DNA of 64,000 nucleotides from Thermoplasmata archaeon (GTDB lineage Archaea > Thermoplasmatota > Thermoplasmata > Lutacidiplasmatales > SKW197): assembly GCA_049970095.1 (NCBI GenBank), contig JBMFNP010000003.1, forward strand, positions 3,254-67,253, written 5' to 3'. Position numbers and translations under genes: made by a program. Positions 25,908 through 28,553 of this stretch are shown in pieces. Position 1 is the first letter of the stretch; every line of letters begins with the position of its first letter. The notes below the pieces were generated by a model. It was given only the letters and a program-made list of their open reading frames with translations, was not told the origin of the DNA and made no database searches.

Positions 25908-28553
25908 TTAACTGCTGCCTCCTGATGCTTTTTTAAATCCTTTTTTCTCCAGTTTTTGCAGTATTGCCTCTGCTTCTTCCTTCTCTTTCTGATATTCCTC
26001 TTTCTCTTTCCTTAATTTTTCTATCACTTTTTCAGCATTATTTTTTACCTCATAGAACTTTTTGATCGCAGGCGCGATTTCTTTTTCAACCCTTGCGGTG
26101 CATTCTTCCACAATTTCTGTTATAAGATTCTCCTGCGGAATTTTCTTTTCCAGTATTGCTTTAAAAGCACCCTCCATTTCTTTCCGCATTCTCTTCAGCG
26201 TCTCTTTTTCCATTTCCAGTTTTTCCTTTTCTTCCATCAATAATTGTGTCTTGGTATCAATCTCATGTAACATTGAGTCCACATTCTTCTTCTCTTTCTC
26301 AATCTCCGCCTTTTTGGAATTTATACTAGCTTCAAGTTCATCCATCTGTTTCTTCCTTACCGCAAACTCCTTACCCATCTCTTCAATTACACCAAGGTCT
26401 TTTGCAATCTCTTTCTCCTTTTCAGTTACCGCATTTTCCCTCTTTTTAATATCCTTTTCCCATGCCTCAATTTCTTCCATTTTCCTTCGTATATACTCTT
26501 CCTTTTCACCTATAACCTTTTCCCTTTCTGTAAGCGAAGCCTCATATACAGTGATTTTATCCACTCTTGCGTTGTATTCTTTTCTTGCCTCTTCCATTTT
26601 CGCTTTCTCTTCAGACAATAATTTTTCCAACTCACCCAAGCTTCTCTCCTTATCTCCCAGTTCCTTTTCCTTTTCACTCAACCTTAAATTCATCGCCTTA
26701 AGTTTCTCAGTTTCCCCTTTTATGAATTCCTCTTTTTCGTAGAGTACCTTTTCCTTTTCTTCCATTGAAACCCTTCTGCTTTCCAGCTCCTGTTTCATTC
26801 TTACAATCTCGTTTTCTTCCTTCTTTATTCGTTCCATGGTTTCGCGCAATTCATTTGCCTTTGCACTTGTCTCCTCAATTGCCTTCGCTAGCGATATTTT
26901 TGTTTTGTCTAGTTCTTCGCTCTTTGCAGAATTTTCTGCAAGCAACTGATTTACCTGCCTCTCCCTTTCTTCCAGTTGTGATGCCAGAATCCGTGCTCTA
27001 TCCTCCTCAGCTTTAAGCCATGCTTCTTTTTCCTGAAGTACCCTCTCCTTTTCTGTAAGCATTGCGGTCATCATTTCCTGTTCTGTGAGTTTGGTATCAA
27101 GTTCCCTCTTTTCTCGCTCGATATCTTCAAGAAGTTTAATGAATTTTTCCACTCTTTCCTTTTCACCTGTTTCTTCTTTTAATGATTGAATTGCATCCAA
27201 AATCCATTTTTCCTTAAGATTCTGCTCCTTTTCTTTGATCCTGATCTCTTCCCGTATCTGCCTTAATTCTTTCAGGTCATTTTCTAACTTAATCCGCATC
27301 TCTTCTGGCATATTTCCTATGTTCTGTGGATACTCCTGTGCTTCTTTAAGGCGTTCTTCCCACTGCCCGAGTTCCTCATACTTTGCATTGAGAGCATTGC
27401 GTTCCATCTCCAGTTGGTACATCTGAGCGGCGAGGTTTTCCTCCTTCTTTCTCAGGTCCTGTGACATCTGTTCAAAAGCCTGGACCTTCCTATTCAGTTC
27501 AATTCCAATCTGTTTTATCCGCTCTTCTTCAGCCTTCAACCAGTTTTCCCATTCTGTTAACTCTCCAATCTTTTTGTTAATCTCTGAATAATTTTCCTGG
27601 AGCTTATTCTCCCGCATTTTTAGGTCTTCTTCCCATACATAGAGGTCACTCTCTTTTGATTTGAGCGCATCTTCTCTGACTGCAAGTTCCTCTTTGAGTT
27701 TTTCCAGTTCTTGATACTTTTCACTTAAGGATGCTAGGGATTCCTGAATGCTTGGCACCTCAAACTCAAATTTGCAGTTTGGACACACCAGTTCAGTTAT
27801 ACCAATCTCTGCTTTACATCTCGGGCATGTTTTAGTGTCTGTAATTCCATTCTCTTTCTTCTTAAGCATCTTCTTTTTCTTCACTGGATACTGAATTTTA
27901 TTCATCTCAGCCTTCCATTTTCCACAGTCGTAGGGTTTCTGGAGTTCCTCCCAGAATATTGCTGCAGGTCTCAAGTAGTAGTCCATATCTTTAACCCCGA
28001 AGACCGCAAATTCCTCATTTATGGGGTCAACCACGATTGCAGAGTGATATTCATGTGGAAACATCTTTGTCTGTGTGGAAATGTCAGTGCTTGAGAGAAA
28101 ACATGTATGACCTGGATGTGAATGGTACCATCCCACTAGAATGTAATCAAAAGGTACTTCCTCAAGCTGTTCAAATAATTTTTCATAACTCTCTTTGTCA
28201 AATTTTACATGCACCGCACTTGCATCAAGGTCAGAGGTCACAATGTCTCTCACTACTGCGTAGATTTTGTTATCAAATTTGTAAATGTCTCCGAGTAAAA
28301 ATCCCATTACCTCCAAGTTCTGGGATTTGTATTTCAGTGCATGCAAAAGAATTTTTTCTTCGGCGTTTTTTGAAATATACACATCAAAAATTTTTGAAGA
28401 TTCAATTGTTTGCTTAAACAGCTCAAAACCTTCCTTTGATGTCCATTCGTGGGGTGCCAGAAATTCGTATGCTGGCGGTTCTTTATTTACAATTTCTTTC
28501 TTGCTTTCACCTACAATTCTAGGCTTTTCCTTCGCCATCCTCTGTGCCCCCAA
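25908..28553 (-). CDS. JAMM/MPN+ metallo-isopeptidase fused to a zinc ribbon and a roughly 600-aa E/K-rich coiled coil
   Basis: The JAMM motif is 'EVMGFLLG...VGWYHSHPGHTCFLSSTD' (E...HxHx7Sx2D). It is followed by 'CPRCKAEIGITELVCPNCK' and then continuous heptad-like E/K/L repeats to the C-terminus ('...KKASGGSS'). Its 5' end overlaps the E2 gene. Confidence 0.8.
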   Translation of the reverse strand: MGAQRMAKEKPRIVGESKKEIVNKEPPAYEFLAPHEWTSKEGFELFKQTIESSKIFDVYISKNAEEKILLHALKYKSQNLEVMGFLLGDIYKFDNKIYAVVRDIVTSDLDASAVHVKFDKESYEKLFEQLEEVPFDYILVGWYHSHPGHTCFLSSTDISTQTKMFPHEYHSAIVVDPINEEFAVFGVKDMDYYLRPAAIFWEELQKPYDCGKWKAEMNKIQYPVKKKKMLKKKENGITDTKTCPRCKAEIGITELVCPNCKFEFEVPSIQESLASLSEKYQELEKLKEELAVREDALKSKESDLYVWEEDLKMRENKLQENYSEINKKIGELTEWENWLKAEEERIKQIGIELNRKVQAFEQMSQDLRKKEENLAAQMYQLEMERNALNAKYEELGQWEERLKEAQEYPQNIGNMPEEMRIKLENDLKELRQIREEIRIKEKEQNLKEKWILDAIQSLKEETGEKERVEKFIKLLEDIEREKRELDTKLTEQEMMTAMLTEKERVLQEKEAWLKAEEDRARILASQLEERERQVNQLLAENSAKSEELDKTKISLAKAIEETSAKANELRETMERIKKEENEIVRMKQELESRRVSMEEKEKVLYEKEEFIKGETEKLKAMNLRLSEKEKELGDKERSLGELEKLLSEEKAKMEEARKEYNARVDKITVYEASLTEREKVIGEKEEYIRRKMEEIEAWEKDIKKRENAVTEKEKEIAKDLGVIEEMGKEFAVRKKQMDELEASINSKKAEIEKEKKNVDSMLHEIDTKTQLLMEEKEKLEMEKETLKRMRKEMEGAFKAILEKKIPQENLITEIVEECTARVEKEIAPAIKKFYEVKNNAEKVIEKLRKEKEEYQKEKEEAEAILQKLEKKGFKKASGGSS

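What the first reader, a model, noticed from the sequence alone, without database searches (positions are those of the whole stretch)
25908..28553. JAMM isopeptidase carrying a roughly 600-residue continuous coiled coil and a zinc ribbon
Deubiquitinase-type JAMM domains in prokaryotic Ubl operons are normally compact, about 130-250 aa. Here the catalytic domain (residues about 80-190) is followed by a CxxC...CxxC ribbon and then an uninterrupted E/K/L-rich heptad region of SMC or myosin-rod length. That would place the protease at one end of a rod 80-90 nm long. This suggests a scaffold, ruler or filament-associated function, or tethering to a large structure such as a virion, the S-layer or cytoskeletal elements. 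The protein ends '...KKASGGSS', a second GG near a C-terminus in this operon.
Basis: seen in the sequence. Interest (0 to 1): 0.7.

Follow-up and report, generated by a model that had tools for sequence, protein, structure and literature searches.

The report
Rod-tailed deubiquitinase in archaeal ubiquitin operon
A heat-spring-type archaeon (Thermoplasmata) encodes an Rpn11-like ubiquitin-removing protease that carries a roughly 600-residue helical rod, and this rare form appears only where the ubiquitin-like tag is itself fused to a larger protein, so it is an undescribed remodelled version of a known archaeal ubiquitin system.

Summary
The gene is real. The ORF at 25908..28553(-) most likely starts at the ATG at 28538 (876 aa). 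It encodes an intact Rpn11-type JAMM domain, a CxxC-x10-CxxC zinc ribbon and a ~600-residue helical, heptad-periodic tail (z=15 versus shuffles). It is neither a frameshift fusion nor a repeat artefact: at least six independent assemblies give colinear ORFs of 874-882 aa, with one 7-residue indel, and the tail is under purifying selection. "Uninterrupted" is overstated, because there are four short helix breaks and several register shifts. A monomer model folds part of the tail back, so 80-90 nm is an upper bound. The gene sits in a tightly packed operon: zinc-ribbon/DUF835(iKaiC)-Ubl fusion, E2, JAMM-rod, E1. Most related Thermoplasmatota loci instead carry E1, a 79-aa Ubl, E2 and a ~210-aa JAMM. 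The rod tail occurs only with the DUF835-Ubl fusion, in every one of 6-7 lineages, whichever protein was used as the query. Best reading: this is the operon's Ubl-maturing and deconjugating isopeptidase, and its hypertrophied C-terminal helices act as an oligomerisation or scaffold arm that co-evolved with the enlarged modifier. I found no support for virus, S-layer or defence links. It is a new variant of a known kind, of moderate interest.

The parts
25908..28538 (-). Whole gene for the JAMM-ribbon-rod protein (876 aa from the ATG at 28538; the ORF is open back to a TTG at 28553; the stop codon is at 25908-25910)
   Evidence: The N-terminus matches P0001, P0002, L087 and L168.
28389..28538 (-). 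N-terminal extension (residues 1-50; K-x-K-I-V-x-E-x-K-x-E-I...PP...H-x-W), shared with the compact ~210-aa JAMMs of Thermoplasmatota
   Evidence: Alignments.
27924..28388 (-). JAMM/MPN+ catalytic domain (residues 51-205)
   Evidence: Pfam JAB 52.9 bits. The best PDB sequence matches are yeast Rpn11 at 3.8e-14, CsRpn11 at 3e-12 and CSN5 at about 1e-11.
28083..28124 (-). Zinc-binding catalytic motif HSHPGHTCFLSSTD (residues 139-152). The catalytic Glu76 in EVMGF lies at 28311-28313.
   Evidence: The residues are invariant.
27753..27923 (-). Lysine-rich linker (PVKKKKMLKKKE) plus a CxxC-x10-CxxC zinc ribbon (Cys 238, 241, 252, 255, at 27774-27827). Present only in the 874-882-aa clade.
   Evidence: Weak Pfam zinc-ribbon hits. 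The spacing is the same as in the partner's two DZR ribbons (read from the sequence).
27333..27740 (-). Helical heptad segment 1 (residues 267-402)
   Evidence: AlphaFold DSSP; periodicity.
27306..27332 (-). Proline-containing break or hinge, YPQNIGNMP (residues 403-411); YPQ and the second Pro are conserved in the close relatives
26151..27305 (-). Helical heptad segment 2 (residues 412-796; minor breaks at 458-459 and 666-671). It holds three copies of the motif EKE+V(L/I)xEKEx(W/F/Y)(L/I)K at 495, 593 and 671. The model's most confident helices are 550-660 and 680-790.
25944..26150 (-). Second Pro-containing break (residues 797-805, KKIPQENL) and a C-terminal helical module (residues 806-865)
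   Evidence: P0004 and P0005 have a comparable break (ISSG(A/S)IK) before their C-terminal module.
25911..25943 (-). Basic C-terminal end, LEKKGFKKASGGSS. The GG is kept in three lineages of the clade while its flanks vary.
25074..25907 (-). E1-like ThiF adenylyltransferase (277 aa; GAGALG motif; CxxC). Its ATG directly abuts the JAMM stop codon.
28519..29061 (-). E2 of the eukaryotic UQ_con type (180 aa; HPN at residue 89, Cys102). Its last 20 nt overlap the JAMM ATG.
29065..30147 (-). Modifier precursor: double zinc ribbon, DUF835 (iKaiC), a ~60-aa disordered linker, then a ubiquitin-like beta-grasp ending ELIPDPEGG plus IREGE. The Ubl is at about 29083-29319 and the post-GG tail at 29068-29082. 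The true start is M41 of the listed ORF.
   Evidence: Foldseek's best hit is Caldiarchaeum ubiquitin 6FNO_D at E=3.4e-6, TM 0.76.

Best explanation
The protein is the Rpn11-type JAMM isopeptidase of a remodelled archaeal ubiquitin-like conjugation operon.

Inferred by analogy with CsRpn11 and BilC: its N-terminal domain clips the residues after the Gly-Gly of the operon's modifier precursor (double zinc ribbon, iKaiC/DUF835, linker, Ubl-GG-IREGE). That cut lets E1 and E2 activate and conjugate the modifier. The same domain also removes the modifier from its targets.

Shown: the ~600-residue tail is a real, selected, heptad-periodic helical extension. It begins where MPN proteins usually carry their short assembly helices.

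Inferred, the least certain step: the tail oligomerises the enzyme and serves as an elongated arm or scaffold. That arm would hold the protease on, or measure it against, the assemblies made by the bulky iKaiC-bearing modifier. It would do non-covalently what one relative does by fusing JAMM directly to DUF835. The zinc ribbon, of the same CPxC-x10-CPxC type as the partner's ribbons, may bring both proteins to the same site.
For: Enzyme identity:
- JAB Pfam hit above cut-off, with an intact E...HxHx7Sx2D motif.
- The closest solved relatives are Rpn11, CsRpn11 and CSN5.
- The catalytic residues are invariant in all tailed relatives.

Pathway context:
- Four genes are packed at +3, -20 and 0 nt.
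- The E2 is UQ_con type with HPN and a downstream Cys; the E1 is ThiF type.
- The partner's C-terminal domain is a beta-grasp. Foldseek's best match is Caldiarchaeum ubiquitin. YukD matches 12/12 members and Pfam ubiquitin 9/12.
- The Ubl ends in an invariant ELIPDPEGG, followed by 1-9 variable residues in the fused forms.
- CsRpn11 and BilC are shown experimentally to cut such precursors after GG and to deconjugate (PMC6043591; bioRxiv 10.1101/2023.09.26.559546).

The tail is functional:
- Heptad periodicity z=15.4.
- Helices cover residues 267-865.
- pN/pS is 0.18-0.22 with synonymous sites saturated.
- The only indel across 876 residues in orthologues about 72% identical is exactly 7 residues.
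- The same plan (rod, Pro/Gly break, rod, break, C-terminal module, basic end) appears in the sister clade.

Link to the modifier:
- Among the 80 genome loci, about 70 of the 74 not described below have an E2 and a 79-130-aa Ubl next to a JAMM of under 340 aa, mostly about 210 aa. The four exceptions are three other JAMM fusions (L071, L078, L084) and L086.
- Among the 80 metagenome loci, 43 show the full E1/Ubl/E2/JAMM set.
- Every long-tailed JAMM sits in the order DUF835-Ubl, E2, JAMM-rod, E1.
- Searching from the fusion protein instead gave 5 clusters in 5.8 billion proteins. Each of the four whose neighbourhood was read lies beside a long JAMM gene of 634, 847, 874 or 882 aa as called.
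- L071 encodes a direct JAMM-DUF835 fusion.
- The four tailed JAMM domains form one clade in a neighbour-joining tree.
Against: No experiment or multimer model shows that the tail contacts DUF835 or that it oligomerises at all.

Bootstrap support for a single origin from the JAMM domain alone is only 48/100.

The JAMM-DUF835 fusion is a single instance; ten other mid-length relatives lack DUF835.

The JAMM domain itself was modelled at low confidence (pLDDT below 50), so the fold is inferred from sequence only.

Tail sequences of the two clades are too diverged for phmmer to link them, so a conserved binding surface cannot be shown.

Six hundred residues is far more than dimerisation needs, so a ruler, filament or substrate-platform role is just as compatible with the data.
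Confidence: 0.55

Rival explanations
1. Cytoskeleton-like reading. The tail is a filament-forming coiled-coil protein, in the manner of crescentin, FilP or lamin/CRWN-type rods, and the JAMM domain rides on it. Deconjugation would then be confined to a cytoplasmic filament network.
For: The heptad region is long, with stutters and short linkers, as in intermediate-filament-like rods. A faint precomputed Pfam CRWN_N (PF27881) label appears on P0004 and P0005. The C-terminal end is basic.
Against: The CRWN_N hits are marked faint or weak, and nothing in the local Pfam, NCBIfam or PDB sequence searches reaches a family cut-off for the tail. No JAMM-less protein matched the full-length query at E<=1e-5, so there is no free-standing filament family from which the tail could derive. 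The monomer model prefers fold-back arms to a single rod.
Confidence: 0.12
2. Substrate-platform reading. The lysine-rich rod (94 Lys in the tail) is itself the main acceptor for the iKaiC-Ubl modifier. The operon would build and dismantle a covalently decorated scaffold, with the JAMM domain acting in cis or trans to reset it. The conserved C-terminal GG might take part as a pseudo-substrate or second donor.
For: There is no E3 or obvious target gene in the conserved four-gene unit. The tail is 15% Lys. GG is conserved with variable flanks at the C-terminus of one clade. The Caldiarchaeum cascade ubiquitylated coiled-coil lysines of Rad50 in vitro (PMC5654768).
Against: This is entirely indirect. 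High Lys content is typical of any E/K coiled coil. The GG is absent from the sister clade. An E1 normally needs a beta-grasp body, which the rod's end lacks.
Confidence: 0.1
3. DNA- or chromosome-associated reading. The protein acts like an SMC/Rad50-type arm, and its zinc ribbon and poly-lysine linker bind nucleic acid, bringing deconjugation to chromatin.
For: Foldseek's best matches for the model are SMC, Rad50 and Smc5/6 arm fragments. Sub-threshold NCBIfam and PADLOC hits go to SMC, ASRP, LmuB and JetC. The linker is basic and lies next to a zinc ribbon.
Against: All those hits are far below cut-off (SMC 43 bits against 567), and all Foldseek E-values are above 0.001. There are no Walker A/B head domains. 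The CxxC pairs lie before the rod, not at its apex like a Rad50 zinc hook. The ribbon and linker are missing in the sister clade. A genuine Rad50/Mre11 pair is encoded elsewhere in the window.
Confidence: 0.08
4. Antiviral defence reading. The operon is an archaeal counterpart of bacterial Bil systems (same gene order: Ubl, E2, JAB, E1). A bulky modifier would be conjugated to virus proteins, and the rod would help to capture or aggregate them.
For: The gene order is identical to BilABCD, and Bil Ubls also carry varied N-terminal add-ons, including coiled coils (PMC11601603; bioRxiv 10.1101/2023.09.26.559546). The variant is rare and patchily distributed.
Against: The E2 is the eukaryotic UQ_con type and has no PADLOC hit. 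The JAB and E1 PADLOC hits are weak, generic CBASS-type matches. The JAMM, E2 and Ubl are orthologous to a compact operon found in most of the related Thermoplasmatota loci examined, which looks like housekeeping. The assemblies that carry the variant contributed no second, compact-operon locus among the 80 best genome hits. The flanks are ordinary metabolic and surface genes that differ between lineages. The viral scan found nothing relevant.
Confidence: 0.08
5. Artefact reading. Two genes have been joined by a frameshift, or a repetitive region has been mis-assembled.
For: P0002/L007 ends early (533-538 aa) with an aberrant C-terminus on a 3.3-kb contig.
Against: Colinear ORFs of 874-882 aa occur in L087, L088, L168 and L169. 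L171 carries the same gene as the window, called there as 847 aa from a later start. P0001 matches with one amino-acid difference over 646 residues. These come from separate projects. There are no tandem repeats. Purifying selection runs along the whole tail.
Confidence: 0.01

Closest known systems
CsRpn11, the Rpn11-like JAMM of the Caldiarchaeum subterraneum ubiquitin operon (PDB 6FJU/6FJV/6FNN; PMC6043591)
   Same: It is an MPN+ JAMM domain with the same catalytic motif. Its sequence similarity to the window protein is of the same order as that of eukaryotic Rpn11 (E=3e-12 against 4e-14). It is encoded with a Ubl, E1 and E2, and the Ubl precursor carries residues after Gly-Gly. The partner Ubl here is structurally closest to CsUb.
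   Different: CsRpn11 is about 200 aa, with only short C-terminal helices. The Caldiarchaeum system has RING E3 genes, and none is present here. The Ubl here is fused behind zinc ribbons and an iKaiC domain. The protease here carries a zinc ribbon and a ~600-aa rod.
The compact Thermoplasmatota operon E1 / Ubl (~79 aa) / E2 / JAMM (~210 aa) found in this study. It belongs to the class of Rpn11-proximal JAMMs that lie in Ub-E1-E2 operons, as noted in PMC6043591.
   Same: The JAMM domain is orthologous (about 40-55% identity, including the N-terminal extension), as are the E2, the E1 and the Ubl with its invariant ELIPDPEGG.
   Different: The gene order differs (E1 is moved to the end), the Ubl is fused to DZR-DUF835, and the JAMM is extended by 400-650 residues.
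BRCC36 with Abraxas/KIAA0157, and Rpn11-Rpn8 or CSN5-CSN6 (eukaryotic MPN deubiquitinases that assemble through C-terminal helices or coiled coils)
   Same: An MPN+ domain is followed by C-terminal helices whose role is assembly into a larger complex (established knowledge; review PMC7692841 was listed but not read). The tail here starts at the equivalent position.
   Different: The eukaryotic helices are tens of residues long and pair with an MPN- partner; no MPN- paralogue is encoded here. The sequence relation to BRCC36 (E about 1e-5) is weaker than to Rpn11. The rod here is about ten times longer.
Bacterial BilABCD (ISG15-like) systems
   Same: The gene order is the same (Ubl, E2, JAB, E1). 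The JAB pre-processes the Ubl. The Ubls may carry N-terminal add-on domains, including coiled coils.
   Different: In Bil systems the add-ons are on the Ubl, not on the protease. The E2 family differs (UQ_con here, with no PADLOC match). No defence context is seen here.
SMC/Rad50 coiled-coil arms
   Same: The confident part of the monomer model resembles their antiparallel arms in shape.
   Different: There are no ATPase heads, hinge or zinc hook. The similarity is below significance.

Membership tests
JAMM/MPN+ metalloprotease (Pfam PF01398 JAB) | Profile match above the curated cut-off | tested here: met
   52.9 bits against a cut-off of 22.5, residues 57-163.
JAMM/MPN+ metalloprotease (Pfam PF01398 JAB) | Catalytic motif E...HxHx7Sx2D complete | tested here: met
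   E76 in EVMGF and HSHPGHTCFLSSTD at 139-152 in ATG numbering. Both are invariant in relatives.
JAMM/MPN+ metalloprotease (Pfam PF01398 JAB) | MPN fold | tested here: inconclusive
   The AlphaFold model of residues 1-233 has pLDDT below 50 because the alignment held only 6 sequences. The secondary-structure order is compatible, but no fold match was obtained.
JAMM/MPN+ metalloprotease (Pfam PF01398 JAB) | Zinc-dependent isopeptidase activity | not testable with these tools
   Needs a cleavage assay.
Archaeal Rpn11-like deubiquitinase of a ubiquitin operon (CsRpn11 type) | Encoded with a Ubl, E1 and E2 | tested here: met
   The operon is conserved in 6-7 lineages.
Archaeal Rpn11-like deubiquitinase of a ubiquitin operon (CsRpn11 type) | Cognate Ubl is a beta-grasp with a C-terminal GG and a removable extension | tested here: met
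Archaeal Rpn11-like deubiquitinase of a ubiquitin operon (CsRpn11 type) | RING-type E3 in the operon | tested here: not met
   No RING gene lies in or next to the four-gene unit in the window or in the related loci. The 4-Cys ribbons are simple zinc ribbons.
Archaeal Rpn11-like deubiquitinase of a ubiquitin operon (CsRpn11 type) | Compact stand-alone enzyme (~200 aa) | tested here: not met
   876 aa. The compact relatives are about 210 aa.
SMC/Rad50 family | N- and C-terminal Walker A/B ATPase head halves flanking the coiled coil | tested here: not met
   There are no ATPase-domain hits. SMC_prok_B scores 43 bits against a cut-off of 567, and the match is on the coiled coil only.
SMC/Rad50 family | Hinge or CxxC zinc hook at the apex of the arm | tested here: not met
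   The CxxC pairs lie at residues 238-255, before the rod. The breaks at 403-411 and 666-671 contain no Cys.
Bil (bacterial ISG15-like) defence system | Gene order Ubl, E2, JAB, E1 | tested here: met
   compared with PMC11601603.
Bil (bacterial ISG15-like) defence system | Bil-type component families or defence-database models | tested here: not met
   The E2 has no PADLOC hit and is Pfam UQ_con. The JAB and E1 hits in PADLOC are weak CBASS-type matches.
Bil (bacterial ISG15-like) defence system | Protection against viruses | not testable with these tools
   The viral-contig scan gave only one unrelated JAMM hit.
CRWN/NMCP-type or other named coiled-coil families | Significant profile match to the family | tested here: not met
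   PF27881 CRWN_N appears only as 'faint' or 'weak' on P0004 and P0005. There is no tail family above cut-off in the local Pfam or NCBIfam scans.

The most novel reading that the evidence does not exclude
The four genes form a self-contained, reversible covalent-assembly machine. E1 and E2 ligate a 40-kDa iKaiC-Ubl module onto lysines of the protease's own rod, or onto other copies of the modifier. This builds a ubiquitin-linked cytoplasmic scaffold. The resident JAMM domain then trims and resets it. The rod's conserved C-terminal GG would act as a pseudo-substrate latch on the active site. That would make it a prokaryotic precedent for deubiquitinases built into large scaffolds, such as the proteasome lid and BRISC.
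Probability: 0.08. Interest if true: 0.8.

Novelty: new variant of a known kind. Interest (0 to 1): 0.55.

Why it matters
Archaeal ubiquitin-like operons are studied as models for how the eukaryotic ubiquitin system arose. In eukaryotes the Rpn11, CSN5 and BRCC36 proteases work only inside large scaffolds, which they join through their C-terminal helices. In archaea the known enzymes are small and free.

This locus shows a natural case in which an archaeal Rpn11-like enzyme has acquired a very large helical assembly module, together with a change that turns the ubiquitin-like tag into a bulky multidomain modifier. If the two changes are mechanistically linked, the system offers a simple four-gene setting for studying how deubiquitinases become scaffold-bound and what a "ubiquitin with cargo" does.

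It also flags an annotation gap. The modifier is annotated only as a DUF835 protein, and its ubiquitin-like end is unannotated.

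Tried and rejected
- **Assembly artefact or frameshift.** Rejected. There are no tandem repeats, only short direct repeats of 64-89% identity that encode a recurring peptide motif, and several independent full-length orthologues exist.
- **Defence system.** PADLOC gave only generic JAB and E1 matches plus coiled-coil noise (LmuB, JetC), and nothing for the E2.
- **Virus link.** One scan of viral contigs returned a single 31%-identical JAMM-only hit.
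- **SMC/Rad50/ASRP membership.** The hits are far below cut-off and lie on the coiled coil only.
- **Free-standing homologue of the tail.** None was found. All nine hits at E<=1e-5 to the full-length query contain JAMM, and phmmer with the tail alone found only the closest clade.
- **More JAMM-DUF835 fusions.** Ten mid-length N-terminal-JAMM representatives were scanned, and none has DUF835.
- **Profile search of the DUF835 partner against PDB sequences.** Only zinc-ribbon matches appeared, plus an insignificant FlaH hit at E=0.37. The iKaiC classification therefore rests on PMC5847659.
- **Structure of the JAMM part.** Confidence was low with a 6-sequence alignment, so no fold-level claim is made.
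- **Literature.** No paper was found that combines DUF835 with ubiquitin or describes a JAMM with a long coiled coil in archaea.
- **Single origin of the tail.** It was recovered in a neighbour-joining tree, but with only 48/100 bootstrap support.

Full report
**1. The observation**

The minus-strand ORF at 25908..28553 is real (881 aa from the first TTG). The ATG at 28538 (MAKEKPRIV, 876 aa) is the likely start. NCBI-called relatives begin there, and the first 30 residues are conserved across the family. Residue numbers below count from that ATG.

Pfam places a JAB/MPN domain at 52.9 bits, against a cut-off of 22.5. The metal-binding motif HSHPGHTCFLSSTD (HxHx7Sx2D) and the upstream Glu in EVMGF are intact. 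Both are invariant in every tailed relative. The closest solved sequences are yeast Rpn11 (3.8e-14), Caldiarchaeum CsRpn11 (3e-12) and CSN5 (about 1e-11). AMSH and BRCC36 are more distant.

After a lysine-rich linker (PVKKKKMLKKKE) comes a CxxC-x10-CxxC ribbon, with Cys at 238, 241, 252 and 255. The rest of the protein, residues 263-876, is 23% Glu and 15% Lys, with four prolines.

**2. Is the tail a coiled coil, and is it continuous?**

Hydrophobic periodicity peaks at exactly 3.5 residues, with z=15.4 against 300 shuffles. There is no signal at 3.0 or 4.0.

AlphaFold, run with a shallow alignment (mean pLDDT 58), predicts helix over 267-402, 412-457, 460-665, 672-796 and 806-865. So the region is helical and heptad-based, but it is not uninterrupted. 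Breaks lie at 403-411 (YPQNIGNMP), 458-459, 666-671 and 797-805 (KKIPQENL). The best heptad register changes repeatedly.

The model's most confident parts (pLDDT 80-88) are residues 550-660 and 680-790, on either side of the 666-671 break. Foldseek's best matches to the model are antiparallel SMC, Rad50 and Smc5/6 arm fragments. All have E between 0.006 and 0.05, which is below significance. A monomer model cannot decide between a parallel dimeric rod (about 85-90 nm at 0.148 nm per residue) and folded-back arms (about 20-30 nm).

**3. Not an artefact**

No tandem DNA repeat underlies the tail. The only DNA repeats are short and 64-89% identical. They encode a recurring peptide motif, EKE+V(L/I)xEKEx(W/F/Y)(L/I)K, at residues 495, 593 and 671. 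The offsets between copies are 98 and 77 residues, both multiples of seven. The self-match scores (75, 74, 70) exceed the shuffled maximum of 62.

Independent assemblies give colinear genes:
- P0001 is 100% identical in the BLAST alignment, with one amino-acid difference visible over its 646 residues, and is cut by the contig end.
- P0002/L007 is 80% identical and truncated near the end of a 3.3-kb contig.
- L087 and L088 come from two JGI metagenomes and are 72% identical and 882 aa long.
- L168 (GCA_026414225.1) is 874 aa.
- L169 is 882 aa.
- L171 (GCA_049699375.1) has the same synteny as the window.

Between the window and the 72%-identical orthologues, the only indel in 876 residues is exactly seven residues. 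Synonymous sites are saturated (pS 0.87-0.96), while pN/pS is 0.18-0.22 in the tail and 0.08-0.11 in the JAMM domain. The tail is therefore a selected coding sequence.

**4. Context**

The gene is the third of four tightly packed minus-strand genes.

- **Modifier precursor, 29065-30147.** It has two zinc ribbons (DZR), DUF835, a ~60-residue disordered linker and a C-terminal domain that ends ELIPDPEGG-IREGE.
- **E2, 28519-29061.** It is Pfam UQ_con, with HPN and Cys102. Its best PDB matches are eukaryotic UBE2A/Rad6 and UBE2N.
- **The JAMM-rod gene.**
- **E1, 25074-25907.** It is a ThiF-type enzyme.

The junctions are +3, -20 and 0 nt.

The C-terminal domain of the first protein is a ubiquitin-like beta-grasp. 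The model shows the order beta-beta-alpha-beta-beta-beta. Foldseek's best hit is Caldiarchaeum ubiquitin 6FNO_D (E=3.4e-6, TM 0.76), followed by ubiquitin, SUMO and NEDD8. Pfam YukD matches 12/12 family members and Pfam ubiquitin 9/12. DUF835 is classed in the literature as an inactivated KaiC-like (iKaiC) output domain (PMC5847659).

**5. Comparative picture**

A scan of GTDB representative genomes with the JAMM-domain alignment gave at least 591 matches. The best 80 were fetched, and almost all are labelled Thermoplasmatota or Methanobacteriota (Thermoplasmata, Methanomassiliicoccales, Methanomethylophilaceae).

In my neighbourhood table, about 70 of these loci show a compact operon: E1 (~265 aa), a stand-alone Ubl (~79 aa), E2 (~170 aa) and JAMM (~210 aa, no heptad tail). 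The metagenome scan gave the same result, with 43 complete compact operons and further partial ones.

The stand-alone Ubl is orthologous to the fused one. ELIPDPEGG is invariant, and many stand-alone copies end exactly at GG.

Long-tailed JAMMs occur only in the following loci:
- the window and L171/L172;
- L007;
- L087/L088/L169/L170;
- L168;
- L001/L002/L008 (P0004, 629 aa);
- L003/L004/L012 (P0005, 634 aa);
- L089/L090.

Every one has the rearranged order DZR-DUF835-Ubl, E2, JAMM-rod, E1.

The search also worked in the other direction. Using the fusion protein as the query gave only five 90%-identity clusters in 5.8 billion proteins. Each of the four whose neighbourhood was read lies beside a long JAMM gene. 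The flanking genes differ between lineages, so the conserved unit is the four genes.

The four tailed JAMM domains form one clade in a neighbour-joining tree, but with only 48/100 bootstrap support. None of the assemblies that carry the variant contributed a second, compact-operon locus among the 80 best genome hits. This suggests replacement rather than addition, with the caveat that MAGs are incomplete.

One MAG encodes a direct JAMM-DUF835 fusion (L071; JAB 48 bits, DUF835 47 bits) beside a Ras-family GTPase. It is a single instance; ten other mid-length relatives have no DUF835.

**6. Two clades of tailed enzymes**

The window clade (874-882 aa) has the lysine-rich linker, the ribbon and the long tail. 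The sister clade (629-634 aa) lacks the ribbon and has a tail of about 400 residues.

Both share the same plan:
- a rod;
- a Pro/Gly break (LG(L/M)IPS in the sister clade);
- a second rod;
- a second break;
- a C-terminal helical module;
- a basic end.

The extra length in the window clade coincides with the region that carries the repeated motif, which suggests internal duplication in heptad-preserving steps.

The ribbon (CPRC-x10-CPNC) has the same type and spacing as the partner's two ribbons (CPYC-x10-CPSC and CPIC-x10-CPHC; read from the sequences).

The C-terminus reads as follows:
- KKGFKKASGGSS in the window;
- KKGFKKTQGG followed by the stop codon in L168;
- KKGFKKAGGND in L087, L088 and L169;
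- VWKKAAK in the sister clade.

So the GG is kept in one clade while its flanks vary, and it is absent from the other clade.

**7. Mechanism**

*Shown.* The JAMM catalytic apparatus is intact. The E1 and E2 motifs are complete. The Ubl precursor carries a post-GG extension. The four genes form an operon-like unit. The helical tail is under selection. The tail strictly co-occurs with the Ubl fusion.

*Inferred from characterised relatives.* CsRpn11 cleaves its precursor after GG and also deconjugates (PMC6043591). BilC pre-processes BilA. By analogy, the JAMM domain here matures the modifier by removing IREGE and reverses conjugation.

*Inferred, least certain.* The tail oligomerises the enzyme and works as an arm or scaffold matched to the bulky iKaiC-bearing modifier. 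This echoes the way eukaryotic MPN enzymes use C-terminal helices to join the proteasome lid, CSN or BRISC.

Alternatives that the data do not exclude are listed with their tests: a filament former, a lysine-rich acceptor platform, a DNA-associated arm and a Bil-like defence system. My hydrophobic-run scan found no run in the protein, and the viral scan found no relevant hit.

**8. Comparison and novelty**

The closest known system is the archaeal Rpn11-type JAMM encoded with ubiquitin, E1 and E2 (Caldiarchaeum). Fuchs et al. already note that JAMMs clustering near Rpn11 lie in Ub-E1-E2 operons.

This protein meets the defining JAMM features and the operon context. It fails the 'compact enzyme' and 'RING E3 present' features. 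It is not an SMC/Rad50 or CRWN family member. It shares only gene order and the idea of Ubl add-on domains with Bil systems.

I found no paper that describes a JAMM with a long coiled coil or a DUF835-Ubl fusion. NCBI labels the partner only as a 'DUF835 domain-containing protein' and the JAMM-rod protein (P0001, P0002) as 'hypothetical protein'.

I rate it a new variant of a known kind. It is rare: three or four representative clusters among the 150 nearest relatives drawn from about 15 billion proteins. It is clearly under selection and mechanistically suggestive, but it is not a new category of system. Interest: 0.55.

Noticed in passing
window 29065-30147 (-): The operon's ubiquitin-like modifier is the C-terminal domain of a 360-aa protein with two zinc ribbons and a DUF835 (iKaiC) domain. 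Public annotation calls it only 'DUF835 domain-containing protein'. Only five 90%-identity clusters exist in 5.8 billion proteins.
   Followed up: yes
L071 4777-6075 (+), with the neighbour at 3998-4606: A single MAG encodes a direct JAMM-DUF835 fusion (432 aa) next to a Ras-family small GTPase. The same MAG also has a JAMM-STAND ATPase-TPR protein (L078/P0006, 912-914 aa) and a 434-aa protein with a C-terminal JAMM (L084).
   Followed up: partly
L009-L086 and L091-L165 (for example L013 and L015): A compact operon of E1, a 79-aa Ubl ending ELIPDPEGG, a UQ_con E2 and a ~210-aa Rpn11-like JAMM is widespread in Methanomassiliicoccales and Thermoplasmata (at least 591 JAMM matches in representative genomes). 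Many of the Ubls end exactly at GG, so they need no processing.
   Followed up: partly
P0007, P0008, P0011, P0012, P0028, P0003; L166: The same JAMM subfamily also occurs at the C-terminus of giant proteins of 700-2000 aa that have Ig/PKD-type domains and a hydrophobic segment (the JAMM is presumably cytoplasmic). It also occurs as a tandem double JAMM with a C-terminal membrane segment.
   Followed up: no
window 25911-25943 (-); L168, L087 and L169 C-termini: The rod protein's C-terminus is KKGFKK-x(1-2)-GG-(0-2 residues) in three lineages, and L168 ends exactly at GG. The sister clade ends VWKKAAK. This mirrors the 'GG plus variable tail' logic of the Ubl, but its meaning is unknown.
   Followed up: partly
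window 30926-33946 (+), copies at 31967-32266 and 32612-32911: A 1006-aa PKD/OB-fold surface-type protein contains a 100%-identical direct repeat spaced 645 nt (215 aa) apart. This is either a very recent duplication or a possible assembly problem. The two downstream ORFs (33886-34722 and 34674-35750) also give OB-fold (tRNA_anti-codon) matches, the first of them just below the Pfam cut-off.
   Followed up: partly
window 56220-61459 (+): An Mre11-like metallophosphoesterase, a Rad50/SbcC-type ATPase (820 aa, the other strongly purine-skewed stretch of the window) and an exonuclease VII large subunit lie in a row. They show that the genome has an ordinary Rad50 as well as the JAMM rod.
   Followed up: partly
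window 17533-25061 (+): A 1622-aa Kelch/Ig-domain surface protein, a PrsW-family intramembrane protease and a 587-aa beta-propeller/fn3 protein flank the operon. The same neighbours appear in L171, while the sister-clade loci (L001, L003) have unrelated flanks.
   Followed up: partly
L005/L006 (P0009): A different JAMM protein (498 aa) has a helical tail of about 150 heptad-like residues that gives a sub-threshold Apolipoprotein Pfam match. It sits beside an E1 and a VWA protein, and L005 also has a divergently transcribed E2 upstream. This may be an independent case of a helical extension on a JAMM.
   Followed up: partly
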